64,000 nucleotides of DNA from Anaeroplasma sp. (GTDB taxonomy: Bacteria; Bacillota_I; Bacilli_A; Acholeplasmatales; Anaeroplasmataceae). The DNA lies in contig JBGVLG010000205.1 in the NCBI GenBank assembly GCA_045124155.1, forward strand, positions 4,103 to 68,102. Reading direction: 5' to 3'. A model generated the notes under the pieces. That model saw only the letters and a list, made by a program, of their open reading frames with translations, had not been told where the DNA came from and made no database searches. Of the stretch, positions 10,523 to 34,915 are shown piece after piece (the first letter of the stretch is position 1; every line of letters starts with the position of its first letter). The position numbers were made by a program, and so were the translations under genes.

Positions 10523-10594
10523 ATAATTAAATTATTAACTTGCATCATAATAAATTTCATAGAAATCTCCGATCCAAGTAAGTCTCCCAAAATA

Positions 10595-10667
10595 TTTTTG
10601 ATAGTCCTGTAATTTGCGGTTTCAGGGTAGAGACTTGCTTACCATATTTAAGCTGATATATCAAAAA
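10595..10667 (-). promoter_or_regulatory. Purine riboswitch aptamer, guanine/hypoxanthine class
   Basis: Minus strand UUUUUGAUA UAUCAGCUUAAAUAUGGUAAGCAAGUCUCUACCCUGAAACCGCAAAUUACAGGAC UAUCAAAAA. It has a 9-bp P1, P2 GCUUA/UAAGC with an AUAUGG loop, the GUCUCUACC junction and P3 with an ACCGCAAAU loop. C precedes the 3' P1 strand. Near base-for-base match to the B. subtilis xpt aptamer as I remember it. Confidence 0.85.
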
Positions 10668-10679
10668 TATTACTATATA

Positions 10680-10708
10680 ATTTTATCATATTAATTTAGA
10701 TTCGTAAA
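10680..10708 (-). promoter_or_regulatory. Candidate sigma-A promoter of the pur operon
   Basis: Minus strand TTTACG - 17 nt - TAAAAT, about 12 nt upstream of the 5' P1 strand of the riboswitch. Confidence 0.45.
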
Positions 10709-10915: not shown

Positions 10916-11428
10916 ATGGCTAAAGTAGGCATAGTAATGGGTAGCGATTCTGATTTAGAAATCATGAGTAAAGCCGCTCAAATATTAGAACAATTTGGTA
11001 TTGATTATGACATGACTGTAATTTCAGCTCATAGAATGCCAGATATTTTCTTTGATTACGCAAATAGCGCATTAGACAAGGGCTACAAGGTAATTATTGC
11101 AGGTGCTGGAGGAGCCGCTCATCTTCCAGGAATGGCTGCAGCAATTTTCCCTCTTCCTGTAATTGGAGTACCAATTCAAACAAAGGCATTAGGAGGAGTT
11201 GATTCATTATATTCAATTGTTCAAATGCCTAGTGGAATTCCTGTTGCGACTGTAGCGATTAATGGTGGTGCTAATGCAGGTATTTTAGCAGCTAAAATTC
11301 TTGCGACCTCAGATCCTGAGCTATTAAAGAAAATTAATGAATATAAGGATAATTTAAAACAACAGGTAGTAACTAAAAAGGAAAAGCTAGAAACAATTGG
11401 CTATAAAGAATATTTAGCAAATAAATAA
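10916..11428 (+). CDS. purE: PurE (N5-CAIR mutase / AIR carboxylase family)
   Basis: 170 aa. VGIVMGSDSD, ISAHRMPD and GAGGAAHLPGM motifs. Confidence 0.93.
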   Translation: MAKVGIVMGSDSDLEIMSKAAQILEQFGIDYDMTVISAHRMPDIFFDYANSALDKGYKVIIAGAGGAAHLPGMAAAIFPLPVIGVPIQTKALGGVDSLYSIVQMPSGIPVATVAINGGANAGILAAKILATSDPELLKKINEYKDNLKQQVVTKKEKLETIGYKEYLANK

Positions 11429-11443
11429 ATATAAAATAAAATA

Positions 11444-11497
11444 AAAGACTCTATGTGATAGAATATACCATTCTACCATTTAGAGTCTTTTTGTTTT
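11444..11497 (+). terminator. Rho-independent terminator after purE
   Basis: AAAGACTCTA (11444-11453) pairs with TAGAGTCTTT (11481-11490), followed by TTGTTTT. Confidence 0.7.
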
Positions 11498-11565
11498 ATA
11501 AGAAATAATTGATATAATATTTCGCTCAAAACTACCAGAATTTTGTTTTTTAATTATTTATAATA

Positions 11566-11988
11566 TTAGTCAATAAATACATATAAAGCAAGTAATATTT
11601 CAGGATAAGTCATTAATGTTTTCTCATAATAAACTTTAAAAATATCACCATCATTAAAGTCATTAAAATTATCAATATATGTATTATTAGAATAATATTT
11701 TGCATTAGTAAAAGAAATTGAGACAAATTCATTCGTAGATAAATTTAAAAATTTATATGGATTATTTTTAACATACTTAAATTGAATAGAATTATCTAAA
11801 TAAAATGATATTTCTTTTTCTTGAGTTGTTGTTTCATTTCTATTTGAAGATTCTGATGCTTTTGCAAATGTATAATCAGAATTATTATCATAAATATTAT
11901 TATCTAATTTTACTTTACTATTGCTAGAACAAGAAATTAAAGTAAAAAATATAACTAAAATTGGAATCAATGTTTTTCTTATGCCCAT
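11566..11988 (-). CDS. Small lipoprotein, unknown function
   Basis: 140 aa. Signal peptide with lipobox: MGIRKTLIPILVIFFTLIS-C-SSN. No recognisable domain. Confidence 0.5.
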   Translation of the reverse strand: MGIRKTLIPILVIFFTLISCSSNSKVKLDNNIYDNNSDYTFAKASESSNRNETTTQEKEISFYLDNSIQFKYVKNNPYKFLNLSTNEFVSISFTNAKYYSNNTYIDNFNDFNDGDIFKVYYEKTLMTYPEILLALYVFID

Positions 11989-12075
11989 GATAATAACAAC
12001 TCCTCCCAGTCATTAACTAAATAATTTGATACTCTACTTGCAGTATTATAATCAAAGCAAAATATGCTTTGTTTT

Positions 12076-13797
12076 TTATTTACCTAATATTTCAAATAAT
12101 TTCTTTGCTGCTAATGCAGGTCCATTATGCTCCATTCCTGGTACTGCTAAACGAGTATGTAGAACACCAATAGGTACTCCTTCATTAAATAATTCACTAA
12201 ACATATTATCAATGATTTTTCTAGTTTCAGCTTCCTTTTGAACTGGTCCAAATGGATTTGCAAAGAAGGATTCAGTCATACCCATTTCCTGAGTTGTACC
12301 CTTAGCACGTCGAGCTCCACGAATAAATATTTTTTTTGCATCCTCTACATTATCATAGAATTCTACTTCTTCATCACATTCTTCATCATAATTATTGGCA
12401 TATAAAAGCATATCAATCTTATAGCCCTTCATAATTTGTTGATATGTCGCAACAGGAATAACTAATCTTGAATTAGTCTTATCTGGATTCATAAAAATTG
12501 CTCTATCCATTTCCTTATAAGCATAGCCTGATGTCATATCATCTAATCTTACAAAAGCACCAATTTCAGTACCATAAGCCTTAATTTGACCCTTATCTAG
12601 CTTAAAGGTACCCATATCATCAAATATTGTTAATTGTGAAGAAATATCATCTCCAGCCACACTTGCTAATGCCTCTAGGGATTCGCTCTTTCCAGCACCA
12701 CTATCTCCAATAATAACAATATTTTTTGTTGTACCATTCTTCATAGTAATATGAACACAGGCACCATGAATAGGTAGGTTACCTTCACCAATCATCTTAA
12801 CATTATATAATGTTAATAACATTTTCTTCATATATCCAAAATAATCAATAGATGAATTATGTGGAGCTACTCCTACATAAATATCATCCTCTTCATCATA
12901 ATAGAAATATGATTCATCATCATAATCAGCACCATAAATATATAATAAATCTGGCTTTTGATTCTTTACATCAGATACAGGAACAAATTCAAATAGATTA
13001 CAAATTGTAACTCCATGAGCTAAATAATCTCTATGGAAATATACATAAGCTAAGGCTGAACCTACTTTAGCTTGATAACAATAATATTCAGAAGCCTTAA
13101 AATGATCCTTAAACCAATTAATTGGATTTTCTTTAGCCTCTGGATAAGTACCTGTTCTCTTATTCTTTTCAGAATATGAAATAAATGGAGGACGGATTAG
13201 AATTTGTTCAATTGCTTCACATTTAGCTAAAAATGAATATTTAGAGCCTTTAGGCATCCATTCATTTTTTGAAATTAATAATGATGCATTTACACCAGCT
13301 GGAAGCTGACGATAAATTGGGAAGCTATGTCCATATAGTTTTTCACAAATTGTACGATAAGTCTTTAATACAACATCATTAAATTCATTTTGAGCCTCAA
13401 TAAAGCTTGATGATTCAACACCATCCTTTGAAACCTTTGAATAAATTACAGAATATCTTTCAAGCTTTCTCCAATAATCATAAAAGTTTTGTACTAAATC
13501 ATATAATACATCACTCATTTCTAAGGCTTGGTTATAAAATGGATCTATTGATGCTATTTCTTCAACAGAAAAGCTTAATAAAAGCTTAAATAAGCTAATT
13601 GTTTTTACTTCAACCTTACTTTTAGGGAATATTTTTAAAACTCTTAATAAATTTTGATTTTCTGTTTTATAAAGGTGTTTTACATATCTTCCCCAAACAT
13701 CAGAAAAACATTCTGATGATAAAACTTCATTTTCTGTTTTACAAAATTTAAGGGAAAAATTCATTACTACCTGTCTTTTTCCTAATGCATATTCCAT
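12076..13797 (-). CDS. Divergent PEP-carboxykinase(ATP)/HprK-superfamily P-loop protein, substrate unknown
   Basis: 573 aa. By-eye matches to the ATP-PEPCK core: KPDLLYIYGA, YFGYMKKM, LPIHGACVH, IIGDSGAGKSE (P-loop, codons at 12685-12708), IFDDMG, TNSRLVIP. The N-terminal ~200 aa have no match. ATG is 8 nt after GGAGG, which overlaps the fhs stop. Confidence 0.6.
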   Translation of the reverse strand: MEYALGKRQVVMNFSLKFCKTENEVLSSECFSDVWGRYVKHLYKTENQNLLRVLKIFPKSKVEVKTISLFKLLLSFSVEEIASIDPFYNQALEMSDVLYDLVQNFYDYWRKLERYSVIYSKVSKDGVESSSFIEAQNEFNDVVLKTYRTICEKLYGHSFPIYRQLPAGVNASLLISKNEWMPKGSKYSFLAKCEAIEQILIRPPFISYSEKNKRTGTYPEAKENPINWFKDHFKASEYYCYQAKVGSALAYVYFHRDYLAHGVTICNLFEFVPVSDVKNQKPDLLYIYGADYDDESYFYYDEEDDIYVGVAPHNSSIDYFGYMKKMLLTLYNVKMIGEGNLPIHGACVHITMKNGTTKNIVIIGDSGAGKSESLEALASVAGDDISSQLTIFDDMGTFKLDKGQIKAYGTEIGAFVRLDDMTSGYAYKEMDRAIFMNPDKTNSRLVIPVATYQQIMKGYKIDMLLYANNYDEECDEEVEFYDNVEDAKKIFIRGARRAKGTTQEMGMTESFFANPFGPVQKEAETRKIIDNMFSELFNEGVPIGVLHTRLAVPGMEHNGPALAAKKLFEILGK

Positions 13798-13807
13798 AAT
13801 TTTCCTC

Positions 13808-15463
13808 CTAGAATAATCCTACTATCTTATTATCAATAACATCCATACGATTAGCAGCAGGCTCTTTTGGCAAGCCAGGCATACGCATAATATCACCAGA
13901 TAATGCTACAACAAAACCAGCACCAATTGATGGTGTAACTCCTCGAATTGTTACTGTAAAATCCTCTGGTCTACCTAAAAGCTTAGGATTATCAGATAAT
14001 GAATATTGAGTCTTTGCCATACAAATTAATGATTCTTGATAGCCAAGCTTTGTTAATCTTGACATTTGATTTTTAGCCTCTTGAGTAAATTCTACATTAG
14101 AAGCACCATATATTTCTTTACAAATGGTAGTTATTTTTTTCTTTAATGTATCTTCTTTAAAATAAAGGAATTTAAAATTATTTGGCTTTGTTTCTATTTC
14201 ATTAATTACCTTATTAGCTAAATCTAAAGCTCCTTCTCCACCTTTAGCCCATACCTCTGATAGGCTAACTGGATGGTTATTAGCTTTAGCCCAAGTCTCA
14301 AGTGCTAATAATTCTTCTTCTGAATCACTTGAAAATCTGTTAATAGCTACAACATAAGGAAGACCAAATTTCTTAACATTCTCAATATGCTTTTCTAAAT
14401 TGCTGAAGCCTTTCTCTAATGCTTCGACATTAGAAATACCTAAATCTTCTTTTAATACACCACCATGCATCTTTAAAGCTCTTATAGTTGCTACAACAAC
14501 AACGCATGAAGGAGTTAAATTAGCTTCTCTACATTTAATATCAAAGAATTTTTCAGCACCCAAATCAGCACCAAATCCAGCCTCAGTAATTGTATAATCA
14601 GATAAAGATAATGCCATTTTTGTAGCAATAACTGAATTACAACCATGAGCAATATTTGCAAAAGGTCCACCATGAATTAAGCATGGAGTACCCTCTAGAG
14701 TTTGAACTAAATTAGGCTTAATTGCATCCTTTAATATCATCATTAAAGCACCTGTAATACCTAAATCCTTAATAGTTACAGGCATTCTATCATAATTATA
14801 TGCAACAACAGTTCTATCAAGTCTTAATCTTAAATCATCCATATCCTTACTTAAGCATAAAATTGCCATTATTTCAGATGCAACTACAATATCAAAATGA
14901 TCCTCTCTAGGAACACCATTTGTAGGGCCACCTAAACCAACAATTGTATTTCTTAAGGCTCTATCATTCATATCTAATACACGATGCCATACAATACGTG
15001 TAGGATCAATACGAAGTGTATTTCCTTGATAAATATGATTATCTATAATTGCAGATACTGTATTATTTGCAGCCTCAATCGCATGGAAATCACCAGTAAA
15101 ATGTAGATTAATATCTTCCATTGGTACTACTTGTGCATAGCCTCCACCTGCAGCACCACCCTTAACACCTAATACAGGTCCAAAGCTTGGTTCTCTTAAA
15201 GCAATAATACTTTTCTTACCTAGTCTAGTAAAGGCATCAGCTAAACCAATAGTTGTAGTAGATTTACCTTCTCCTGCAGGAGTTGGGTTAATTGCAGTAA
15301 CTAAAATAAGCTTTCCATTCTTATTTCCATAAGAATCAAGACTTACCTTAGCTTTATATTTTCCATAGCATTCTAAATTATCTTCATTAATATCAAATGC
15401 TTTTGCAATCTCAGTAATATTTTTCATTTTGGCATTTTGTGCAATTTCTAAATCTGTTAGCAT
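13808..15463 (-). CDS. fhs: Formate-tetrahydrofolate ligase
   Basis: Motifs [14 protein letters not shown] and [15 protein letters not shown] trimmed the track ORF (TTG at 15493) to the ATG at 15463 (MLTDLEIAQ...), the usual Fhs N-terminus, with AGGAAA upstream. Confidence 0.93.
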
Positions 15464-15525
15464 ATAATTTTCCTTTCTTTCAATAAAACTCAAAATTATT
15501 ATATCATAATAAATTTATAAAGCAA

Positions 15526-16023
15526 TTATTCAATACTAACTATTCTATTTTCAAAATCACAAATTACCTTTTCAAGCTTACTAGTTGGTACACTCTTACC
15601 AACAACATCAGCTCTAATAGGTAATTCTCTATGACCTCTATCAACAAAAACAGCTAGTTCAATTTTAGCAGGTCTTCCCATATCCATAATCGCATCCATT
15701 GCTGCTCTTACAGATCTACCTGTATATAAAACATCATCAACTAAGATGATAATTTTATCATTTATATCATTTATAAATTGAGTTTTTAATGCTTCATTCT
15801 TTTTATGGTCATCACGATGAGAAACAATATCAATTGATTCTAATAAAACATCAACACCTTCAAATTGTTTTATTAATTCTTTAATTTCTTTGGCAATAGG
15901 TACACCCTTTTTCTCAATTCCTACTAAAATAATATTATCAAGCATATCATTCTTTTCTATTATTTCATGAGTCATTCTTTTTAATGTTCTATTAAATTGT
16001 TCTCTCTCAATAATTGTTTTCAT
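15526..16023 (-). CDS. pyrR: PyrR, pyrimidine attenuation regulator / uracil phosphoribosyltransferase
   Basis: 165 aa. PRTase loop IILVDDVLYTGRSVRAAMDA and VDRGHRELPIRAD, typical of PyrR. Confidence 0.85.
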   Translation of the reverse strand: MKTIIEREQFNRTLKRMTHEIIEKNDMLDNIILVGIEKKGVPIAKEIKELIKQFEGVDVLLESIDIVSHRDDHKKNEALKTQFINDINDKIIILVDDVLYTGRSVRAAMDAIMDMGRPAKIELAVFVDRGHRELPIRADVVGKSVPTSKLEKVICDFENRIVSIE

Positions 16024-34093: not shown

Positions 34094-34114
34094 TCTTACA
34101 CCTCCATTTAGTTT

Positions 34115-34151
34115 AAATGAAAAATCTTCTTCTACCAAGGTAAAAGAAGAT
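34115..34151 (-). terminator. Leader attenuator hairpin upstream of rplJ
   Basis: Minus strand AUCUUCUUUUACC / GGUAGAAGAAGAU (one G-U or mismatch) followed by UUUUCAUUU, about 20 nt before the rplJ RBS. Confidence 0.55.
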
Positions 34152-34154
34152 TAA

Positions 34155-34215
34155 TACTTCAATGTTCCTCGGTAGGAGATTAAGGGCTTATGCCCGCCTA
34201 CTGTCTTCGGCAATA
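34155..34215 (-). promoter_or_regulatory. Candidate ribosomal protein L10 leader (L10-L12 binding element)
   Basis: Minus strand GCCGAAGACAGUAGGCGGGCAUAAGCCCUUAAUCUCCUACCGAGGAAC. It has a GUAGG/CCUAC outer helix enclosing a GGGC-AUAA-GCCC hairpin. It is unusually GC-rich for this genome and sits where Bacillota carry the L10 leader. Confidence 0.5.
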
Positions 34216-34219
34216 TTTT

Positions 34220-34915
34220 TTACTTTTTACTAATAGAATCAGCGTCAACCTTAACGCCAGGTCCCATTGTAGCTGCTACGCTAACATTCTTAACATAGCC
34301 ACCCTTAATAGTTGAAGGGCGTACCTTTAATAGAGCATCATAAACTACTCTTAGGTTTTCTAATAACTTTTCAGGTCCAAATGATACCTTACCGATAGTC
34401 ATTTGAATGTTACCTACCTTATCTGGACGGTATTCAACCTTACCAGCTTTAATTTCTTTTACTGCTTTTGCAACGTCCATTGTTACAGTACCAGTCTTAG
34501 GGTTTGGCATTAATCCCTTAGGACCTAAAACACGTCCTAAACGTCCTAATTGACCCATCATATCTGGTGTAGCAACGATAACGTCAAATTCGAACCAGCC
34601 TTGGCTAATCTTGTTGATCATTTCTGCTTCGCCTACATAATCAGCACCAGCCTCTAAAGCTTCTTGTTGCTTTGCACCACGGCAAAGTACTAAAACCTTA
34701 CGAGTCTTACCAGTACCATTAGGTAATACGATTGCACCACGAATATTTTGTTCAGCTTTACGTGGGTCAATATTTAAGCGGAATGCAACATCAACAGATG
34801 CATCAAACTTAGCTGTAGAAGTCTTACATGCTAATCCTAAAGCTTCTAATGCTGGATAAGCTTTTGTATTATCTACAAGCTTTGCTGCTTCAATGTACTT
34901 CTTTCCTCTCTTCAT
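34220..34915 (-). CDS. rplA: 50S ribosomal protein L1
   Basis: 231 aa. KRGKKY..., [12 protein letters not shown] and [15 protein letters not shown] motifs. Confidence 0.97.

What the first reader, a model, noticed from the sequence alone, without database searches (positions are those of the whole stretch)
12076..13797. Rewired PEP-carboxykinase-like P-loop enzyme translationally coupled to formate-THF ligase
**Retained catalytic core.** The C-terminal two thirds of this 573-aa ORF can be aligned by eye to ATP-dependent PEPCK:
- KPDLLYIYGA (cf. KPDFIVMNGA)
- YFGYMKKM (cf. YGGEMKK)
- LPIHGACVH (cf. MHCSAN, the metal His)
- IIGDSGAGKSE (kinase-1a P-loop; the Ser-Glu after Lys is the HprK style)
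- IFDDMG (kinase-2 Asp pair)
- TNSRLVIP (cf. ENTRVSYP)

**Altered substrate region.**
- At the position of the PEP/oxaloacetate-binding signature TGRSPKDK the protein reads TGTYPEAK. The Arg, Ser, Lys and Asp are all replaced.
- About 200 residues with no recognisable similarity precede this motif.

**Context and interpretation.**
- Its ATG sits 8 nt after a GGAGG that overlaps the fhs stop codon, so it is co-expressed with formate-THF ligase (upstream pyrR, downstream a small lipoprotein).
- The phosphoryl-transfer machinery seems kept while the substrate pocket is changed. This argues for a kinase or carboxykinase acting on something other than oxaloacetate, possibly linked to C1/formate metabolism.
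Basis: partly seen in the sequence, partly recalled or inferred. Interest (0 to 1): 0.65.

Follow-up and report, generated by a model that had tools for sequence, protein, structure and literature searches.

The report
Divergent PEP-carboxykinase-fold enzyme beside fhs
This gene encodes a very divergent, uncharacterised relative of phosphoenolpyruvate carboxykinase, common in gut anaerobes, that most likely still works on oxaloacetate and supplies aspartate for purine synthesis rather than using a new formate-linked substrate.

Summary
The ORF is real: window 12076-13797, minus strand, 573 aa.

**Fold.** An alignment-based AlphaFold2 model (pLDDT 92) matches only ATP- and GTP-type PEPCK structures (Foldseek E about 1e-15, 420-500 aligned columns). 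Profile-profile comparison with PckA gives 92.6% probability.

**Active site.**
- Counterparts of E. coli Y207, K212/K213, H232, the P-loop K254/T255 and R333 are 85-97% conserved in 68 family members.
- The R65 motif TGRSPKDK is not recognisable.
- Curated Pfam and NCBIfam PEPCK cut-offs are missed by far, so this is a separate family. It has more than 6000 sequence clusters in Anaeroplasma, Clostridium, Fusobacterium and Turicibacter, and no Pfam model.

**Context.**
- The fhs-X link holds in 25 of 25 Anaeroplasmataceae loci and in none of 55 other loci.
- In unrelated lineages X sits beside aspartate or oxaloacetate genes: an AspC-like aminotransferase, aspA, asnA, argG-argH and oadA/pycB. 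It also occurs as an aminotransferase-like fusion next to an asparaginase gene.

**Verdict.** This is probably a fourth, divergent PEPCK type working at the PEP/oxaloacetate node. NCBI already names many members "phosphoenolpyruvate carboxykinase", and I found no paper on the family. The idea of a non-oxaloacetate, C1-linked substrate is not supported.

The parts
12076..13797 (-). ORF X, 573 aa: divergent PEPCK-fold P-loop enzyme
   Evidence: ORF list. AF2 model pLDDT 92.1. Foldseek top 50 hits are all PEPCK, E 7.6e-16 to 1.5e-14. hhalign vs PckA profile 92.6%.
13453..13797 (-). Residues 1-115: mostly helical N-terminal extension with no counterpart in E. coli PckA
   Evidence: DSSP of the model shows helices 22-111. 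Global hhalign starts PckA residue 1 at X residue 116, at low confidence.
13150..13164 (-). N212-K-R214-T-G216, conserved N-x-R-x-G loop: candidate substitute for the PckA R65 loop (inferred)
   Evidence: N212 is 85% and R214 86% conserved in 68 sequences. The assignment to R65 is not verifiable by sequence.
13132..13155 (-).
   Evidence: Position. Apart from G216 the segment is poorly conserved in the family. hhalign places it opposite PckA residues about 99-105, not 63-70.
12823..12843 (-). Y319-F-G-Y-M-K324-K325, counterpart of PckA Y207-G-G-E-M-K212-K213
   Evidence: hhalign alignment. Conservation: Y319 95%, K324 97%, K325 85%.
12760..12777 (-). L-P-I-H344-G-A, counterpart of PckA M-H232-C-S (Mn2+ ligand His)
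   Evidence: hhalign with the PckA profile aligns H344 to H232. H344 is 88% and P342 98% conserved, whereas H349 is not conserved.
12682..12708 (-). P-loop G364-D-S-G-A-G-K370-S371-E372 (kinase-1a)
   Evidence: Aligned to PckA G248..K254-T255. Residues are 85-98% conserved.
12610..12627 (-). I-F-D393-D394-M-G, probable kinase-2 Asp pair (PckA D268/D269)
   Evidence: D393 and D394 are 92% conserved. hhalign puts them opposite PckA WDDDG rather than GDDEH, so the equivalence to D268/D269 is an inference.
12538..12573 (-). G-T-E411-I-G413-A-F-V-R417-L-D-D, the most conserved family motif; possible counterpart of PckA GGCYAK288 (inferred)
   Evidence: G409 and G413 are 100%, E411 97%, R417 91% conserved. 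The alignment here is ambiguous.
12454..12477 (-). T-N442-S-R444-L-V-I-P, counterpart of PckA E-N331-T-R333-V-S-Y-P
   Evidence: hhalign. N442 is 91% and R444 89% conserved.
13804..13808 (-). GGAGG ribosome-binding site of X, overlapping the last base of the fhs stop codon, 6 nt before the ATG
   Evidence: Sequence read.
13808..15493 (-). fhs, formate-tetrahydrofolate ligase, immediately upstream in the same orientation
   Evidence: Pfam FTHFS E 2e-267. fhs-X adjacency in 25 of 25 Anaeroplasmataceae loci.
15526..16023 (-). PyrR-like phosphoribosyltransferase, 32 nt upstream of fhs
   Evidence: Pfam Pribosyltran E 6e-21. Present upstream of fhs in 6 relatives.
12053..12071 (.). 7-bp hairpin 5 nt after the X stop codon; possible weak or bidirectional terminator
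   Evidence: Terminator scan. The T-run is on the + strand only.

Best explanation
X is an active member of a large, uncharacterised family that shares the two-domain PEPCK fold but lies outside the ATP-, GTP- and PPi-type families.

**Shown**
- It keeps the catalytic core of PEPCK: the Tyr and Arg of the CO2/carboxylate site (Y319, R444), the Lys-Lys and His of the Mn2+ site (K324/K325, H344), and the P-loop Lys-Ser (K370/S371).
- It also has a conserved Asp pair (D393/D394), whose match to PckA D268/D269 is inferred (see evidence against).

**Inferred**
- It interconverts phosphoenolpyruvate plus CO2 and oxaloacetate, using a nucleotide or another phosphoryl donor.
- The substrate carboxylate is held by family-specific arginines (R114, R148, R163, R214) instead of the R65 loop.
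- In this Anaeroplasma-like organism it is transcribed with fhs, next to the pur genes. It would act anaplerotically: PEP + CO2 gives oxaloacetate, then aspartate. Aspartate is the nitrogen donor for SAICAR and adenylosuccinate synthesis, while Fhs supplies the formyl groups.
- In amino-acid fermenters, and in the asparaginase-linked fusion proteins, the same chemistry would run the other way: Asn to Asp to oxaloacetate to PEP.
For: **Fold**
- AF2 model with 39 homologues: pLDDT 92.1, pTM 0.92.
- All top 50 PDB hits are PEPCKs (E. coli, Thermus, rat, chicken, M. tuberculosis), E 7.6e-16 to 1.5e-14 over 418-580 columns.
- The best viral-library hit is the Catovirus PEPCK.

**Homology**
- hhalign 92.6% (local) and 95.7% (global).
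- tblastn E 2e-6.

**Catalytic residues conserved in 68 representatives**
- Y319 95%, K324 97%, K325 85%, H344 88%, K370 95%, S371 91%, D393/D394 92%, R444 89%.

**Aspartate/oxaloacetate neighbours in independent lineages**
- AspC-like aminotransferase directly before X (L042, L069) or before fhs-X (L023, L024), and within 6 kb in four more loci.
- aspA 85 nt after X (L095/L096).
- asnA overlapping the X start by 4 nt (L101).
- argG-argH-X (L030, L079).
- Oxaloacetate decarboxylase alpha / pyruvate carboxylase B 20 nt after X (L076).
- A class-V aminotransferase closest to aspartate-glyoxylate aminotransferase, 24 nt before X (L026).
- Proteins of 2000-2200 aa that join an aminotransferase-like segment to an X-like domain. 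The two whose loci were fetched (P0253, P0247) sit next to an asparaginase gene.

**In the clade of the window**
- fhs-X-purE-purK-purL-purC or fhs-X-folD-purB.

**Database names**
- NCBI and UniProt name many members phosphoenolpyruvate carboxykinase.
Against: - No member has been assayed as far as I could find.
- The R65 motif, essential for oxaloacetate/PEP binding in E. coli PckA, is not recognisable. The N-terminal domain cannot be aligned by sequence (0.3% probability).
- Curated PEPCK models are missed by far: Pfam 15.3 bits against a cut-off of 26.5, NCBIfam 19 against 369.
- The last roughly 78 residues of PckA are absent, and the adenine-contacting R449 has no conserved counterpart in the hhalign alignment. 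The phosphoryl donor is therefore unknown.
- Most clostridial copies stand alone, with uninformative neighbours.
- Several neighbours share aspartate rather than oxaloacetate as the common metabolite, so an aspartate-derived substrate is not excluded.
- The D393/D394 = D268/D269 equivalence is inferred, not aligned.
Confidence: 0.55

Rival explanations
1. X is a PEPCK-fold kinase or carboxykinase that has changed substrate: another beta-keto or alpha-keto acid, an aspartate-derived compound, or a C1/purine-pathway intermediate. It keeps only the phosphoryl-transfer machinery.
For: - The TGRSPKDK motif is absent and the N-terminal domain is unalignable.
- There is a 115-residue helical extension, plus four family-specific conserved arginines.
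- Scores against curated PEPCK models are far below threshold.
- Links to fhs, pur genes and folD are tight in one clade.
- Aspartate, rather than oxaloacetate, is the metabolite shared by most neighbours: asnA, aspA, argG and asparaginase.
- One divergent member (P0168) lies in a sugar-nucleotide cluster.
Against: - The residues that form the CO2/C4-carboxylate site in PckA (Y207, R333) are kept (Y319, R444). So are the Mn2+ ligands that hold the keto acid. These would be dispensable in a plain kinase.
- Aminotransferase adjacency and fusion, and the oadA/pycB neighbour, point to the keto acid of aspartate, which is oxaloacetate.
- purK is present next to X-purE in 6 loci, so X is not a PurK substitute.
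- The fhs link is absent outside Anaeroplasmataceae.
Confidence: 0.27
2. X is a regulatory protein kinase/phosphorylase of the HprK/P type. It phosphorylates a protein substrate using ATP or PPi.
For: The P-loop reads GDSGAGKSE, with Ser-Glu after the Lys as in HprK/P. It is preceded by a conserved H-G and followed by an h-h-h-D-D strand. This resemblance is recalled from memory of HprK/P sequences and was not tested by alignment.
Against: - No HprK chain appears in three PDB sequence searches.
- There is no Pfam HprK_C hit.
- The Foldseek alignments of the top 50 PDB matches, all PEPCKs, run over 418-580 columns for a 573-residue model, so they extend well beyond a P-loop domain alone.
- The PEPCK-specific Y-x-G-x-M-K-K and N-x-R motifs are conserved.
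- No PTS genes are among the neighbours.
Confidence: 0.06
3. X is a catalytically dead or purely structural/regulatory remnant of a PEPCK.
For: A minority of family members have degenerate P-loops: P0163, P0191-P0193, P0204 and P0213.
Against: - The window protein and about 90% of 68 representatives keep every mapped catalytic residue.
- The family is large, full-length and conserved across phyla.
- It is tightly embedded in biosynthetic operons.
Confidence: 0.03

Closest known systems
ATP-dependent phosphoenolpyruvate carboxykinase (PckA; Pfam PF01293; e.g. E. coli 1AQ2, 2PXZ)
   Same: - Overall two-domain fold (Foldseek E about 2e-15, 420-450 aligned columns).
- Conserved counterparts of Y207, K212, K213, H232, the P-loop K254 with T255 (Ser here), N331 and R333.
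- The motif KPDxxxxxGA.
   Different: - Only 19% identity over 324 aligned columns.
- Far below the Pfam and NCBIfam cut-offs.
- The R65 motif TGRSPKDK is absent.
- An extra helical segment of about 115 residues at the N-terminus.
- The last roughly 78 residues of PckA are missing.
- The P-loop reads GDSGAGKSE instead of GLSGTGKTT.
- The spacing around the Asp pair differs.
GTP-dependent PEPCK (rat cytosolic, chicken mitochondrial, M. tuberculosis)
   Same: Equally good structural matches: E 7.6e-16 for 2FAH, with up to about 500 aligned columns.
   Different: - 12-13% identity in the structural alignment.
- No Pfam hit to the GTP-PEPCK families.
- X is about 30-50 residues shorter than the aligned chains (597-624 residues).
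PPi-dependent PEPCK (Entamoeba / Propionibacterium type, about 1100-1200 aa)
   Same: It is a precedent for a PEPCK class that sequence searches could not recognise, and that uses a non-nucleotide phosphoryl donor. This rests on my own knowledge; the enzyme is only mentioned in papers found.
   Different: - X is half that size.
- No PPi-PEPCK chain appeared among the top 50 Foldseek hits or in the PDB sequence searches.
- No direct comparison was made.
HPr kinase/phosphorylase (HprK/P)
   Same: Same P-loop superfamily as PEPCK, and a P-loop with Ser-Glu after the Lys. This is a motif-level resemblance recalled from memory.
   Different: - No detectable sequence match to HprK.
- X has the full PEPCK architecture and the PEPCK-specific substrate and metal motifs.

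Membership tests
PEPCK fold superfamily (ATP-, GTP-, PPi-type PEPCKs) | Two-domain PEPCK architecture detectable by structure comparison | tested here: met
   Model pLDDT 92.1. The top 50 PDB matches are all PEPCK, E 7.6e-16 to 1.5e-14, with 418-580 aligned columns and TM 0.41-0.49.
PEPCK fold superfamily (ATP-, GTP-, PPi-type PEPCKs) | Statistically supported sequence-profile homology | tested here: met
   hhalign 92.6% probability, E 4.6e-7, 324 columns. 77.5% with a single PckA sequence.
ATP-dependent PEPCK (PF01293 / NCBIfam PRK09344) | Score at or above the curated family cut-off | tested here: not met
   Pfam PEPCK_ATP 15.3 bits against 26.5. NCBIfam NF006821 19.1 bits against 369.
ATP-dependent PEPCK (PF01293 / NCBIfam PRK09344) | P-loop (kinase-1a) with Lys and Thr/Ser | tested here: met
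   G364-D-S-G-A-G-K370-S371 aligned to G248..K254-T255. 85-98% conserved.
ATP-dependent PEPCK (PF01293 / NCBIfam PRK09344) | Mn2+ site: K213, H232, D269 | tested here: inconclusive
   K325 and H344 align to K213 and H232 and are 85% and 88% conserved. D394 is 92% conserved, but hhalign aligns it to the WDDDG segment, not to D269.
ATP-dependent PEPCK (PF01293 / NCBIfam PRK09344) | CO2/carboxylate site: Y207 and R333 | tested here: met
   Y319 (95%) and R444 (89%) align to Y207 and R333.
ATP-dependent PEPCK (PF01293 / NCBIfam PRK09344) | Oxaloacetate/PEP-binding Arg in the TGRSPKDK motif (R65) | tested here: not met
   The motif is absent. Global hhalign places it opposite a non-conserved stretch, X about 178-186. 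The N-domain alone is unalignable. A structural substitute (R214 or another Arg) could not be checked without model coordinates.
ATP-dependent PEPCK (PF01293 / NCBIfam PRK09344) | Adenine pocket in the C-terminal region (R449, I452, T455) | tested here: inconclusive
   X 546-571 aligns to PckA 440-462 at low confidence, without a conserved Arg. X ends there, whereas PckA continues for 78 residues.
ATP-dependent PEPCK (PF01293 / NCBIfam PRK09344) | Catalysis of oxaloacetate + NTP <-> PEP + CO2 + NDP | not testable with these tools
   Only genomic association with aspartate/oxaloacetate enzymes is available.
HPr kinase/phosphorylase | Match to the HprK C-terminal domain model or to HprK structures | tested here: not met
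   No HprK_C hit among Pfam hits at E up to 10. No HprK chain in PDB searches with the protein, the family profile or the P-loop segment.
HPr kinase/phosphorylase | P-loop G-x-S-G-x-G-K-S-E | tested here: met
   GDSGAGKSE at 364-372, with E372 95% conserved. The HprK consensus itself is from memory.

The most novel reading that the evidence does not exclude
X represents a fourth class of PEP carboxykinase, structurally related to the ATP, GTP and PPi classes but unrecognisable by sequence. It would be the main PEP-oxaloacetate enzyme of many Clostridium, Fusobacterium, Turicibacter and Anaeroplasma species. It would bind its C4 acid with a different set of arginines, and it may use a phosphoryl donor other than ATP, because the PckA adenine-binding tail is missing and the P-loop is of the HprK/P type.
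Probability: 0.45. Interest if true: 0.65.

Novelty: new variant of a known kind. Interest (0 to 1): 0.5.

Why it matters
- **Metabolic models.** The PEP-pyruvate-oxaloacetate node decides how anaerobes fix CO2 and make aspartate, and how amino-acid fermenters feed gluconeogenesis. For Clostridium, Fusobacterium and gut Mollicutes, models either take the automatic "PEPCK" name on trust or leave the step as a gap.
- **Enzymology.** Showing that this family is, or is not, a real PEPCK would settle that step. It would also add a class with a differently built substrate site to a textbook enzyme family, and it would show which PEPCK residues are truly indispensable.
- **This organism.** It would explain why the gene travels with fhs and the pur genes: together they provide the formyl, CO2 and aspartate inputs of purine synthesis.

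Tried and rejected
1. **Single-sequence AlphaFold2.** pLDDT 35, unusable. It was replaced by an alignment-based model.
2. **PDB sequence searches** with the protein, the family profile and the P-loop segment. These returned only generic P-loop ATPases, with no PEPCK and no HprK.
3. **Riboswitch or leader in the long upstream gaps of clostridial copies.** None was found in 10 loci.
4. **X as a non-homologous replacement of PurK,** since it sits just before purE. Rejected because purK follows purE in 6 loci that also have X.
5. **Aligning the N-terminal domain alone to PckA to locate the R65 equivalent.** 0.3% probability, uninformative. The global alignment is low-confidence.
6. **The 1200-2200-aa proteins as PPi-type PEPCKs.** Only P0259 (1206 aa) was searched against PDB sequences, and it had no match. 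The larger ones carry an aminotransferase-like segment instead.
7. **Canonical pckA in the window.** None. The rest of the genome could not be searched.
8. **Literature searches** for a characterised member. Nothing relevant.
9. **H349 as the metal His,** as in the single-sequence hhalign. Rejected because H349 is not conserved, whereas H344 is and aligns to H232 with the profile.
Full report
**1. The observation**

The window has a 573-aa ORF at 12076-13797 on the minus strand.

- Ten nucleotides upstream, the formate-tetrahydrofolate ligase gene (13808-15493; Pfam FTHFS E 2e-267) ends in a TAG.
- A GGAGG (13808-13804) overlaps the last base of that stop and lies 6 nt before the ATG.
- Further upstream is a 165-aa PyrR-like phosphoribosyltransferase.
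- Downstream is a 140-aa ORF whose N-terminus contains LISC, a lipobox-like motif.

**2. Is the PEPCK resemblance real?**

By ordinary sequence searches it is barely visible.

- Pfam PEPCK_ATP scores 15.3 bits against a cut-off of 26.5.
- NCBIfam PEPCK scores 19 bits against a cut-off of 369.
- PDB sequence searches with the protein or a family profile return only generic P-loop proteins.

By profile and structure it is clear.

- A single-sequence AlphaFold2 model was useless (pLDDT 35). With 38 homologues (alignment A1) the model has pLDDT 92.1 and pTM 0.92.
- Its 50 best PDB matches are all PEPCKs of the ATP and GTP types, at E 7.6e-16 to 1.5e-14 over 418-580 columns.
- The best match among viral proteins is a giant-virus PEPCK.
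- I assembled nine ATP-PEPCK sequences. hhalign of the family against them gives 92.6% probability and E 4.6e-7 over X 216-571 / PckA 100-462, and 95.7% in global mode.
- Plain tblastn of a Rhizorhabdus PckA also reaches clostridial members at E 2e-6.

**3. Residue mapping**

The hhalign alignment gives these equivalences. Conservation is from 68 full-length representatives.

| X residue(s) | E. coli PckA | Conservation in the family |
|---|---|---|
| Y319 | Y207 | 95% |
| K324 / K325 | K212 / K213 | 97% / 85% |
| H344 | H232 | 88% |
| G364..K370-S371 | G248..K254-T255 | 85-98% |
| N442 / R444 | N331 / R333 | 91% / 89% |

- H349, which a single-sequence comparison had paired with H232, is not conserved.
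- The Asp pair D393/D394 is 92% conserved. hhalign places it opposite WDDDG rather than GDDEH, so I infer, but have not shown, that it corresponds to D268/D269.
- The most conserved family motif, GTExGAFVRLDD (409-420), may correspond to GGCYAK288. This is also an inference.
- The TGRSPKDK loop carrying R65 has no recognisable counterpart. Global alignment puts it opposite a variable stretch, and the N-terminal part alone cannot be aligned (0.3% probability).
- The family has its own conserved arginines there: R114, R148, R163 and R214. The statement that the Arg is replaced therefore depends on an unverifiable by-eye register.
- Residues 1-115 form a mostly helical extension absent from PckA.
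- X ends where PckA still has about 78 residues, and no conserved Arg matches the adenine-contacting R449.
- The tools do not expose model coordinates, so I could not inspect the pocket directly.

**4. The family**

- More than 6000 clusters at 90% identity match the protein.
- 518 representatives at 50% identity match at E up to 1e-3.
- None carries a Pfam domain.
- A scan of one genome per species found at least 554 loci. The best 80 come from Anaeroplasma and Acholeplasmatales, Clostridium sensu stricto (including C. beijerinckii, C. butyricum, C. tyrobutyricum and C. paraputrificum), Fusobacterium, Cetobacterium, Turicibacter, Erysipelotrichales and Brevinema.
- Sources name members "phosphoenolpyruvate carboxykinase", "hypothetical protein" or, wrongly, "EcfA2".
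- I found no paper on the family.
- A few members have degenerate P-loops.

**5. Genomic context**

Within Anaeroplasmataceae (L001-L025, 54-88% identity to X):

- fhs is immediately upstream in 25 of 25 loci, usually with a gap of 6-27 nt.
- X is followed by purE, often then purK-purL-purC, or by folD-purB.
- In the window a lipoprotein gene is inserted and purE is inverted.

In the other 55 loci fhs is never within 6 kb.

- Many Clostridium copies stand alone, behind intergenic regions of roughly 150-430 nt that hold no Rfam element.
- An Lrp/AsnC-type regulator is often nearby.

Where the neighbours are informative, they converge on aspartate and oxaloacetate.

| Neighbour | Arrangement | Loci |
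|---|---|---|
| AspC-like aminotransferase | Directly before X | L042, L069 |
| AspC-like aminotransferase | Directly before fhs-X | L023, L024 |
| AspC-like aminotransferase | Within 6 kb | four more loci |
| Aspartate ammonia-lyase (aspA) | 85 nt after X | L095/L096 |
| asnA | Overlaps the X start codon | L101 |
| argG-argH | Before X | L030, L079 |
| Oxaloacetate decarboxylase alpha / pyruvate carboxylase B | 20 nt after X | L076 |
| Class-V aminotransferase, closest to aspartate-glyoxylate aminotransferase | Between purD and X | L026 |
| Sodium:dicarboxylate symporter | Convergent with X | L039, L046 |
| Asparaginase gene | Upstream of a 2100-2200-aa protein joining an aminotransferase-like segment to an X-like domain | L099, L100 |

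Some loci were uninformative. One divergent member lies in a sugar-nucleotide cluster.

**6. Interpretation**

- The conserved residues are those that, in PEPCK, hold Mn2+, the keto acid, the leaving CO2 and the gamma-phosphate.
- The recurrent partners make or consume aspartate or oxaloacetate.
- An aminotransferase fused to X argues for a keto-acid hand-over.

The simplest reading is that X still interconverts PEP plus CO2 and oxaloacetate, with a rebuilt carboxylate-binding site and an unknown phosphoryl donor. In the Anaeroplasma clade it sits with the genes that supply the other purine inputs: Fhs and FolD for formyl groups, PurE/PurK for CO2. Purine synthesis uses aspartate twice. An anaplerotic role, PEP to oxaloacetate to aspartate, therefore fits. 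This is inference, and I give it 0.55.

Rivals:

- An HprK-like protein kinase is unlikely.
- A dead enzyme is very unlikely.

**7. Known or new?**

- X is not a member of the curated ATP-PEPCK family, because it fails the score cut-offs and lacks the R65 motif. It is a member of the PEPCK fold superfamily.
- Annotation pipelines already label many members PEPCK, so the likeness itself is not new.
- What is open: whether that name is correct, which residues replace R65, and which phosphoryl donor is used.
- I rate it a new variant of a known kind, with interest 0.5.

Noticed in passing
window 10582-10683 (-): Purine riboswitch aptamer (Rfam RF00167, 74.8 bits) upstream of the purL-purC-purF-purM-purN-purH-purD-folD gene string. 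The fhs-X unit has no such element of its own.
   Followed up: partly
window 10916-11988: Relative to most Anaeroplasmataceae loci (fhs-X-purE on one strand), the window has a 140-aa lipoprotein gene inserted after X and purE inverted. L009 shares the inverted purE (89% identical). No purK lies next to purE here, although 6 relatives have purE-purK-purL.
   Followed up: partly
window 12040-12071: A 7-bp hairpin lies right after the X stop codon, with its T-run on the opposite (+) strand. On the minus strand it is followed by TATAAT, which could be the -10 box of the lipoprotein gene. The region may be a bidirectional terminator plus a promoter.
   Followed up: no
L099 6001-12600; L100 6001-12441 (proteins P0253, P0247; also P0269): Bacterial proteins of 2000-2200 aa carry an aminotransferase class I/II-like segment (about residues 720-860) and an X-like domain (about 1410-1730). 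At L099 and L100 the gene lies downstream of an asparaginase gene and an ORF of about 80 aa, next to cohesin/LTD surface-protein genes. The locus of P0269 was not fetched. Most of their length has no family match.
   Followed up: partly
proteins P0163, P0191, P0192, P0193, P0204, P0213: A subset of family members has degenerate P-loops (for example GDAESGGIK and GDTYSGKFF) and has lost the R444 equivalent. These may be inactive paralogues.
   Followed up: no
L007 (CAVFNL010000005.1) and L024 (CAVEPF010000099.1): Contigs filed under Parabacteroides distasonis and Anaerotignum sp. carry the Anaeroplasmataceae-type fhs-X synteny, with 73% and 54% identity to X. This suggests mis-binned contigs in those assemblies.
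   Followed up: no
L027-L080 (Clostridium loci), gene cluster c1: An Lrp/AsnC-family regulator lies within one to three genes of X in 31 loci. In L010 it is directly upstream of fhs-X. It is a possible amino-acid-responsive regulator of X.
   Followed up: partly
window 34110-34228 (-): Ribosomal protein L10 leader (Rfam RF00557, 79 bits), unrelated to the finding.
   Followed up: no
cluster members P0271, P0276, P0291: Some sources name members of this family [quoted passage not shown]. This looks like an annotation error driven by the P-loop.
   Followed up: no
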